Shown: one piece after another, positions 10,541 through 10,921 of the stretch | Position numbering within the stretch: the first letter of the stretch is position 1 | Layout: every line of letters begins with the position of its first letter | Source of the DNA: Sphyrna mokarran | Lineage: Eukaryota | Length of the DNA stretch: 64,000 nt | Assembly: GCA_024679065.1 (NCBI GenBank) | Contig: JAGIQG010000011.1 | Location: forward strand, 31,434,001 to 31,498,000 | Direction: 5' to 3' | The notes under the pieces: model-generated | What the model was told of the DNA's origin: nothing | Seen by the model: the letters and a program-made list of their open reading frames with translations, nothing else | Databases searched by the model: none | Position numbers and translations under genes: made by a program

Positions 10541-10921
10541 CAACCCTTCCTCGAAGTAAAGGTGACGGAAACATCAAAACGATCCAGAAGAAATCTTGGT
10601 CTTGACTGTGACGAACACTCAACTGAATCTCGCTGTTGTCGTTATCCCCTCACTGTAGACTTTGAAGCTTTCGGTTGGGACTGGATAATAGCGCCCAAGA
10701 GATACAAAGCCAATTACTGCTCAGGACAATGCGAGTACATGTTCCTGCAAAAATTCCCACACACCCACCTCGTACAGCAGGCCAATCCTCGGGGTTCGGC
10801 TGGACCCTGCTGCACTCCCACGAAGATGTCGCCTATAAATATGTTATATTTTAACGGAAGAGAACAAATCATCTATGGAAAAATCCCAGCAATGGTAGTG
10901 GATCGTTGTGGCTGCTCCTGA
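10541..10921 (+). CDS. mstn: Myostatin coding exon 3: furin site RSRR and mature TGF-beta cystine-knot domain
   Basis: The acceptor is cccaacag|CAA. It encodes [87 protein letters not shown] with 9 cysteines. At 381 nt it is the canonical length. The spliced CDS is 1161 nt (386 aa). Confidence 0.97.

What the first reader, a model, noticed from the sequence alone, without database searches (positions are those of the whole stretch)
10592..10921. Myostatin whose mature ligand is a GDF8/GDF11 mosaic
Seen: the 109-aa mature peptide. Established: human GDF8 and GDF11 mature domains differ at 11 positions. At those positions this protein has 6 GDF11-type residues (N1, L2, Q46, Y49, M50, Q62) and 5 GDF8-type residues (T11, L52, G89, E91, A100). 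The N-terminus and the wrist/pre-helix region are mostly GDF11-like, while the fingertip is GDF8-like. These surfaces are the ones implicated in the higher potency of GDF11. The promoter nevertheless identifies the locus as mstn. Inference: this is close to the ancestral pre-divergence ligand (GDF8-specific changes arose later in bony vertebrates), or it reflects gene conversion. Either way it is a natural chimera that may have intermediate potency.
Basis: partly seen in the sequence, partly recalled or inferred. Interest (0 to 1): 0.7.

Follow-up and report, generated by a model that had tools for sequence, protein, structure and literature searches.

The report
Shark myostatin retaining older GDF11-like residues
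This is the ordinary myostatin gene of a cartilaginous fish, whose signalling peptide is identical across the sharks, rays and chimaera examined and looks half like its sister hormone GDF11, likely because it kept older residues that bony vertebrates later changed rather than because the two genes exchanged DNA.

Summary
The 6:5 split is real, plus two unreported residues, F55 and R90. The gene is myostatin: gene order, prodomain tree (98/92) and mature tree (98/90) agree, and a separate gdf11 exists in the genome. The mature peptide is identical in 15 of 15 listed cartilaginous-fish GDF8 records, so nothing here is species-specific. Conversion is unsupported: four-fold sites against the animal's own gdf11 are saturated (29 of 39 differ) and no mature-domain site groups the two shark genes. 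Lamprey shares N1, Q46, Y49, M50, Q62 with it, so these are likely old residues; G89, E91, A100 occur only in GDF8s. It is therefore a half-way stage of the GDF8 lineage, not the pre-duplication ligand (tetrapod GDF11 is closer to lamprey). T11 and L52 are not GDF8-specific. The promoter argument fails: the same CCAAT/TATA block (86% over 72 bp) sits upstream of this animal's gdf11. Cartilaginous-fish GDF11 carries H62, the reverse of mammals. Potency is untested; intermediate is plausible. Ordinary gene, modest evolutionary interest.

The parts
4979..5062 (+). core promoter block (TGACAG 4979, CCAAT 5009, TATAAAA 5054); 4993-5062 is shared with the animal's gdf11
   Evidence: motifs; 62 of 72 bases identical to C971:9690846-9690917, the only other match in the genome, E 6.9e-13; 77% to a teleost mstn promoter, L044
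5173..5578 (+). exon 1 coding part: signal peptide and start of TGF-beta propeptide; predicted tolloid site G|D at 5497-5502
   Evidence: PF00688; splice joint 5578-7182 in contigs of 4 of 4 runs; tolloid position by alignment to rodent GDF8 R|D (cleavage there in mammals is recalled)
6465..6544 (+). intron-1 block weakly shared with gdf11 intron 1, same orientation
   Evidence: 61 of 82 identical, E 1e-6 in a pairwise search; not recovered by the genome-wide search, so weak
7182..7555 (+). exon 2, propeptide
   Evidence: both splice joints seen in 4 of 4 runs
10541..10591 (+). exon 3, end of propeptide with furin site RSRR (10580-10591)
10592..10921 (+). mature GDF8 ligand, 109 aa plus stop
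   Evidence: identical in 15 of 15 listed cartilaginous-fish GDF8 records
10727..10777 (+). pre-helix and wrist codons 46-62: Q46, Y49, M50, Q62 (as GDF11 and lamprey), L52 (as GDF8 and cyclostomes), F55
   Evidence: codons 46-51 are the longest identical run with own gdf11, 18 bases
10856..10891 (+). fingertip and dimer-interface codons 89-100: G89, E91, A100 (GDF8 lineage only) and R90 (seen only in cartilaginous-fish GDF8 among the rows aligned)

Best explanation
This is the myostatin (GDF8) gene of a cartilaginous fish, and its mature ligand likely looks mosaic because it kept residues of the common ancestor of GDF8 and GDF11 at the N-terminus and wrist while already carrying the first GDF8-lineage changes at the fingertip. 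Shown: three spliced exons, a 386-aa precursor with furin site, gene order, tree position, identity of the mature peptide across sharks, rays and a chimaera, silent-site saturation against own gdf11. Inferred order of events: duplication together with the HoxC/HoxD chromosomes after the split from lampreys and hagfish; G89, E91, A100 fixed on the GDF8 branch and M52 on the GDF11 branch before sharks and bony fishes split; D1 and E46 in bony-vertebrate GDF8; positions 2, 49, 50, 62 then changed differently in each bony lineage; cartilaginous fishes added F55 and R90 and then held the peptide constant under purifying selection. It is predicted to work as other myostatins (furin and tolloid processing, dimer, ActRII with ALK4/5/7, SMAD2/3) and, by the published swaps, to be somewhat more potent than mammalian GDF8 and weaker than mammalian GDF11 (about 55% likely; F55 and R90 untested).
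For: Gene order on contig C113: ECH_2/HIBCH-type exons (+) 31.31-31.38 Mb, SmAKAP (-) 31.405, this gene (+) 31.44, MutL-family (-) 31.64, ORMDL (+) 31.70; matches the human HIBCH-C2orf88-MSTN-PMS1-ORMDL1 order (recalled). Hox cluster at 41.5 Mb and inhibin beta B at 79.2 Mb on the same contig. A second gene on C971 groups with GDF11. Prodomain tree: cartilaginous + bony GDF8 98/92, 976 of 1000 bootstraps; grouping the two shark genes 1 of 1000, AU p 0.026. Mature tree: 98/90, cyclostomes outside in 904 of 1000. Full precursor 100/97. Cyclostome rows (3): Q46 3, M50 3, Q62 3, N1 2, Y49 2, L52 3, D89/Q91/G100 3. Ray-finned GDF8s keep Y49/M50, frogs keep Q62. Four-fold sites: 29 of 39 differ, saturation 0.74. 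Site patterns in the mature domain: orthologue 3.2, same-lineage 0.0, third 0.6. 13 of 13 listed mature-domain differences in 4 runs of related animals are silent. Hox clusters pair as A/B and C/D, and the second duplication is gnathostome-specific (PMC10972751, passages). Potency of swaps: PMC5336696 sections 8, 10, 12; 10.1101/2022.05.09.491247 sections 3 and 11 part 1.
Against: The place of the cyclostome gene is unresolved on the prodomain (outside 524, with GDF8 296, with GDF11 153 of 1000) and the full precursor (480/232/257). E46 is the commonest state in 30 of 42 distant, presumed invertebrate rows and V50 in 18 of 42, so Q46 and M50 are old only within vertebrates and bony-vertebrate E46 would be a reversal. 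The longest identical DNA run with own gdf11 falls exactly on codons 46-51 (chance 0.05 at that place, 0.33 anywhere in the domain). The two shark promoters are more alike (86%) than either is to a teleost mstn promoter (77-78%). No formal ancestral-state estimate was obtained; polarity is read from living outgroups. The Hox cluster on C113 was not typed as HoxD directly and no HoxC gene was found on C971 (its one listed homeobox is POU-like). No chimaera GDF11, coelacanth GDF8 or caecilian/salamander GDF8 was in the trees.
Confidence: 0.85

Rival explanations
1. Ancient gene conversion: before chimaeras and elasmobranchs split, gdf11 overwrote part of mstn (5' half of the mature domain, perhaps also the core promoter); silent sites have since saturated.
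For: N1 and Q46 separate cartilaginous GDF8 from all 16 bony GDF8 rows and match GDF11; E46 is common in invertebrate relatives (30 of 42); 18 identical bases over codons 46-51; promoter block 86% identical with 19 identical bases; best non-self match of the chimaera GDF8 prodomain is shark GDF11, 74%, above paddlefish GDF8, 71%.
Against: L52 and F55 inside the supposed tract are not GDF11-type; Q62 is H in 14 of 14 cartilaginous GDF11s; codons for N1, L2, T11 differ at silent sites; same-lineage site pattern 0.0 in the mature domain and 3.2 against 11.3 overall; a longer run (7 codons) lies in the prodomain and the 6-codon run is expected (p 0.33); lamprey has N1 and Q46 too; in the promoter core 6 sites set the teleost apart, 2 each the two shark genes, as a fast teleost branch would give; the genes lie on different contigs.
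Confidence: 0.07
2. The peptide is essentially the undivided pre-duplication GDF8/11 ligand.
For: It is the GDF8 closest to lamprey: 9 differences against 13-17 for the five bony GDF8s compared.
Against: Lizard and rodent GDF11 differ from lamprey at only 6; G89, E91, A100 are absent from all 3 cyclostome and all 13 GDF11 rows; F55 and R90 are its own.
Confidence: 0.04
3. Convergent substitution: cartilaginous-fish myostatin independently moved to N1 and Q46 under selection for higher potency.
For: N1/D1 is labile (D in hagfish and in Narcine GDF11); E46 is widespread outside vertebrates.
Against: Needs separate gains of Q46 in cyclostomes, GDF11 and shark GDF8 if cyclostomes lie outside; one gain and one reversal is simpler. 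No swap of 1 or 46 alone was singled out in the sections read.
Confidence: 0.03
4. The locus is a gdf11 copy or a third paralogue misread as myostatin.
For: Mature peptide scores marginally better against GDF11 than GDF8 (253.2 against 252.4 bits); promoter shared with gdf11.
Against: Gene order, three trees, and only two GDF8/11 genes in the genome.
Confidence: 0.01

Closest known systems
GDF8/myostatin of cartilaginous fishes (RefSeq records, e.g. XP_007888340.1 Callorhinchus milii, XP_069790782.1 Narcine bancroftii)
   Same: Mature peptide 109 of 109 identical; prodomain 267-276 of 277 identical in the 11 records compared; same 386-aa length.
   Different: Nothing of note; these records are annotated as GDF8, and no paper discussing their residue pattern was found.
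Mammalian GDF8 (PDB 3hh2, 5ji1)
   Same: Orthologue by gene order and trees; G89, E91, A100, L52, T11; RSRR furin site; three exons; CCAAT/TATA promoter (PMC6477727, passages).
   Different: N1, L2, Q46, Y49, M50, F55, Q62, R90; G instead of R before the predicted tolloid Asp, as in teleost GDF8, GDF11 and cyclostomes.
Mammalian GDF11 (PDB 5e4g, 6mac)
   Same: N-terminus, Q46, Y49, M50, Q62.
   Different: Paralogue on another chromosome; D89, Q91, G100, M52, S11, Y55, K90.
Engineered GDF8/GDF11 chimeras (PMC5336696; 10.1101/2022.05.09.491247)
   Same: Resembles a GDF8 carrying H62Q and two of the three pre-helix swaps, which raised reporter activity.
   Different: Natural, by descent; lacks A100G and G89D/E91Q, to which the second paper ascribes much of the potency gap; has F55 beside A100, a pair not tested in the sections read.
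Lamprey and hagfish GDF8/11 (XP_032813193.1; UniRef100_UPI00358F2906)
   Same: Q46, M50, L52, Q62; N1 and Y49 in lampreys.
   Different: D89, Q90, Q91, G100, Y55, I2, N11.

Membership tests
GDF8 / myostatin | TGF-beta precursor: propeptide, RXXR site, 109-aa cystine-knot ligand, three exons | tested here: met
GDF8 / myostatin | lies between C2orf88/HIBCH and PMS1/ORMDL1 | tested here: met
   Pfam family matches in that order and orientation on C113; gene names assigned from family and recalled human order
GDF8 / myostatin | prodomain groups with bony-vertebrate GDF8 | tested here: met
   98/92; 976 of 1000 bootstraps
GDF8 / myostatin | mature domain groups with GDF8; E91 and A/S100 | tested here: met
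   98/90; E91 in 16 of 16 bony GDF8 rows, Q91 in 13 of 13 GDF11 rows
GDF8 / myostatin | promoter distinctive of mstn | tested here: inconclusive
   CCAAT/TATA block matches a teleost mstn promoter but equally this animal's gdf11, so it is not diagnostic
GDF8 / myostatin | muscle-centred expression and restraint of muscle growth through SMAD2/3 | not testable with these tools
   spliced contigs show the transcript exists; tissues are not given
GDF11 | prodomain clade and neighbours (ORMDL2, BLOC1S1) of GDF11; D89/Q91/G100 | tested here: not met
   met instead by the gene on C971
gene-conversion chimera | tract with lowered silent divergence from the donor | tested here: not met
   mature 29 of 39 four-fold sites differ, residues 1-62 15 of 20; flanking introns do not align
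gene-conversion chimera | shared derived sites between the two genes of one lineage | tested here: not met
   weight 0.0 in the mature domain; a tract older than all living cartilaginous fishes cannot be excluded by silent sites

The most novel reading that the evidence does not exclude
In cartilaginous fishes the two ligands never fully parted: mstn and gdf11 still share one pre-duplication core promoter, myostatin kept the potency residues Y49/M50/Q62 and stayed unchanged for some 400 million years, while GDF11 lost Q62 and changed finger residues (H62, H63, A66, N95, Q97). The potency gap known from mammals would be narrowed or reversed there, myostatin would carry part of the broad developmental role, and the weak, muscle-centred myostatin would be a stepwise invention of bony vertebrates.
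Probability: 0.15. Interest if true: 0.6.

Novelty: new member of a known kind. Interest (0 to 1): 0.3.

Why it matters
The gene is an ordinary, already annotated orthologue, so the finding is not a surprise about this genome. Its value is comparative: it orders the eleven GDF8/GDF11 differences in time (fingertip and residue 100 first, residues 1 and 46 next, wrist last and repeatedly), shows that 'GDF8-type' and 'GDF11-type' as defined from humans are not lineage-wide labels, and supplies a natural pair of ligands (shark GDF8 with Q62, shark GDF11 with H62) for testing which residues set potency. The shared promoter suggests that the so-called myostatin proximal promoter predates the GDF8/GDF11 split.

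Tried and rejected
Recent gene conversion: rejected. Sequencing or assembly artefact: rejected, same peptide in 15 of 15 listed records and in contigs of related animals. Promoter as a marker of mstn: rejected. Typing a HoxC gene beside gdf11: the one homeobox listed on C971 is POU-like. Placing the cyclostome gene by prodomain or full-length trees: unresolved. A formal ancestral-state estimate was not obtained. Bony-vertebrate gdf11 promoter DNA: the one metagenome scan gave 2 loci, both teleost mstn, one with promoter. Sequencing runs: no holder on record as RNA, tissues not given. Rfam scan of 1-30000: 0 matches. Earlier findings of the scan: none by sequence or by words. Three papers asked for by recalled ids were not held. 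Structure and complex prediction were not run: at 93% identity to solved structures they cannot rank potency. Rows left out: Arapaima GDF8 from the mature tree and tallies (aberrant C-terminus); 10 further rows from the full-length tree; P0143 (no mature part) from the GDF11 count.

Full report
Observation. The + strand of 10592-10921 gives a 109-residue peptide and a stop, preceded by RSRR. Two further residues, F55 and R90, match neither. F55 also occurs in 2 of 16 bony GDF8 rows; R90 in none of the 16 bony GDF8, 13 GDF11 or 3 cyclostome rows.

Gene. Exons lie at 5173-5578, 7182-7555 and 10541-10921 and give a 386-aa precursor. Both GT..AG joints are seen in contigs of 4 of 4 public runs laid on the stretch, so the transcript is made in these related animals; tissues are not given. 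The genome holds exactly two genes of this type among the matches returned: this one and one on contig C971, 90% identical in the mature part.

Which gene. On C113 the family searches give, in order, HIBCH-type exons (+), SmAKAP/C2orf88 (-), this gene (+), a MutL-family gene (-) and ORMDL (+); this is the human MSTN neighbourhood (order recalled). A Hox cluster and inhibin beta B are on the same contig. C971 carries another ORMDL 21 kb from the second gene and BLOC1S1, as near human GDF11 (recalled). In a prodomain tree (45 rows, 222 columns) cartilaginous-fish GDF8 is sister to bony GDF8 at 98/92 and the C971 gene sits in GDF11; forcing the two cartilaginous groups together is rejected (AU p 0.026). 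The mature tree (44 rows) gives the same GDF8 clade at 98/90 with GDF11 spread near its base and cyclostomes outside; the full precursor (34 rows) gives 100/97.

Not peculiar to this animal. The best database hit is a ray GDF8 with 100% mature identity. Of the 21 members of its cluster 15 were listed, naming 15 species of sharks, rays, a skate and the chimaera Callorhinchus; all 15 have the identical mature peptide. The prodomain is 96-99.6% identical, against 87-98% for GDF11 of the same seven species or genera. In four runs of related animals 13 differences were listed in the mature coding part and all 13 are silent (a few differences near the ends of the stretch were not listed); only 21% of random changes would be. 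DNA divergence is low (up to about 3%), so slow mutation contributes. Such constancy is not unique: rodent, bird and gecko GDF8 are also identical to each other.

Conversion test. Against the animal's own gdf11, 29 of 39 four-fold sites in the mature part differ, equal to the saturation value 0.74; residues 1-62 give 15 of 20; exon 1 gives 20 of 33 and exon 2 27 of 39. Introns and 3' flank of exon 3 do not align. The longest identical run is codons 46-51, right over Q46/Y49/M50; shuffling within degeneracy classes gives a run this long somewhere in the domain in 33% of trials and at that place in 5%, and a 7-codon run exists in the prodomain. Counting site patterns over 7, 16, 6 and 7 rows, the mature domain has weight 3.2 for the orthologue pattern and 0.0 for the pattern conversion would leave. 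Recent conversion is excluded; one older than the chimaera-elasmobranch split (about 400 million years, recalled) cannot be excluded by silent sites, and I give it 7%.

Direction of change, read from living outgroups. The three cyclostome rows have Q46, M50, L52, Q62, D89, Q91, G100; lampreys also N1 and Y49. So the 'GDF11-type' residues of the shark ligand, and L52, are shared with cyclostomes, and G89, E91, A100 are shared with GDF8s only. T11 is in 14 of 14 cartilaginous GDF11s and in the bird, lizard, frog and teleost GDF11s listed; S11 is seen in placental mammals. Among 16 bony GDF8 rows D1 is in 16, E or D46 in 16, but Y49 persists in 6, M50 in 8, Q62 in 2, and 62 takes five states. Lamprey differs from lizard or rodent GDF11 at 6 positions, from this ligand at 9, from five bony GDF8s at 13-17. 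The ligand is thus the least changed GDF8, but GDF11 is nearer the outgroup. Caveats: the cyclostome gene is outside both in 904 of 1000 mature-domain bootstraps but only 524 and 480 on prodomain and full length; outside support comes from the pairing of Hox clusters as A/B and C/D and a gnathostome-only second duplication (PMC10972751, passages), given the recalled linkage of MSTN to HOXD and GDF11 to HOXC. Distant, mostly unnamed and presumed invertebrate relatives have E46 in 30 of 42 and V50 in 18 of 42, so Q46 and M50 are vertebrate states. No formal ancestral-state estimate was obtained.

Promoter. The window has TGACAG, CCAAT and TATAAAA at 4979, 5009 and 5054, the arrangement described for mstn from mammals to teleosts (PMC6477727, passages; 'shark' occurs 0 times). 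The same block lies about 150-220 bases upstream of the gdf11 start codon: 62 of 72 identical, the only other match in the genome. A teleost mstn promoter from a metagenome contig (L044, exon 1 identical to teleost GDF8 records) matches the shark mstn block at 77% and the shark gdf11 block at 78%; of 58 core columns 44 are common to all three, 6 set the teleost apart and 2 each one shark gene. A second, weaker block is shared in intron 1 (not found). CCAAT boxes are also reported for human GDF11 (PMC8109099, passage). The simplest reading is a core promoter inherited from before the duplication and kept by both genes; promoter conversion is the alternative. Either way the promoter does not identify the locus.

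How it likely works. As a latent TGF-beta precursor cut by furin and a tolloid protease (site conserved by alignment), signalling as a dimer through type II receptors and ALK4/5/7 to SMAD2/3 (10.1101/2022.05.09.491247, introduction). In human GDF8, H62Q, A100G, F49Y/V50M/L52M and G89D/E91Q each raised reporter activity; Q62 bonds to the backbone of Y49, and G100 lets Y55 pack closer (PMC5336696, sections 8, 10, 12). Much of the gap is ascribed to 89 and 91. The shark ligand has Q62, Y49, M50 but G89, E91, A100, L52, so a potency above mammalian GDF8 and below GDF11 is my prediction (about 55%), with F55 and R90 unknown. Cartilaginous-fish GDF11 has H62 in 14 of 14 records, with H63, N95, Q97 and mostly A66: the mammalian pairing at 62 is reversed in this group.

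Novelty. The sequence is on record and named GDF8 in many species. Searches of the held library found no paper on this pattern: 0 papers held myostatin, GDF11, shark and phylogenetic together, and the listings showed none on cartilaginous-fish myostatin. The review PMC8080601 (passages) gives GDF8/GDF11 trees with amphioxus and argues that the ancestral gene resembled GDF11 in expression, with 0 occurrences of shark, chondrichth or cartilaginous; PMC8905337 likewise has none. PMC8718839 and PMC13097845 were seen as passages. Xing 2007 and Funkenstein and Olekh 2010 were seen only as references. Most subscription papers and figures are not held, and no supplements were read, so alignments showing shark myostatin may exist in print.

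Verdict. Real observation, ordinary cause: an orthologous myostatin that likely kept older residues. The useful additions are the order of changes, the invariance across cartilaginous fishes, the reversed residue 62 and the shared promoter. Interest 0.3.

Noticed in passing
window 4993-5062 and G000:C971:9690846-9690917 (L037): mstn and gdf11 of this animal share a 72-bp CCAAT/TATA core promoter block at 86%, higher than their exon 3 DNA (76%); only two copies in the genome.
   Followed up: partly
L002 1498-1881 (-), G000:C971: The genome's gdf11 has H62, H63, A66, N95, Q97; H62 is in 14 of 14 cartilaginous-fish GDF11 records, the residue mammals have in GDF8.
   Followed up: partly
window 5173-10591: The GDF8 prodomain is 267 of 277 identical to the chimaera's, far above rodent against bird (230 of 266), and more conserved than the GDF11 prodomain in the same group, the reverse of what a review reports for other vertebrates.
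   Followed up: partly
window 6465-6544: Short intron-1 block resembling a block in gdf11 intron 1, same orientation; possible old shared enhancer, weak evidence.
   Followed up: partly
window 13890-14300: CpG-rich stretch (59% GC, 31 CpG in 14001-14500) 3 kb behind the mstn stop, with a splice-donor-like GTGAGT on the - strand near 13900; possibly the first exon of a transcript running antisense across mstn to the SmAKAP/C2orf88 gene at contig 31.405 Mb. Untested.
   Followed up: no
window 1000-14500: CpG observed/expected is mostly 0.4-1.1 over the whole mstn locus and mostly 0.05-0.3 from 15000 to 30000, suggesting a low-methylation domain.
   Followed up: no
window 37000-40400 and 62255-63584: Fragments of LINE-type retrotransposons (RVT_1 match at 62255-62782; similar ORFs).
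   Followed up: no
G000:C971:11026895-11027062 (L033): The one homeobox listed on the gdf11 contig is POU-like, not Hox; no HoxC gene was among the 95 homeobox matches on that contig (lower bound).
   Followed up: partly
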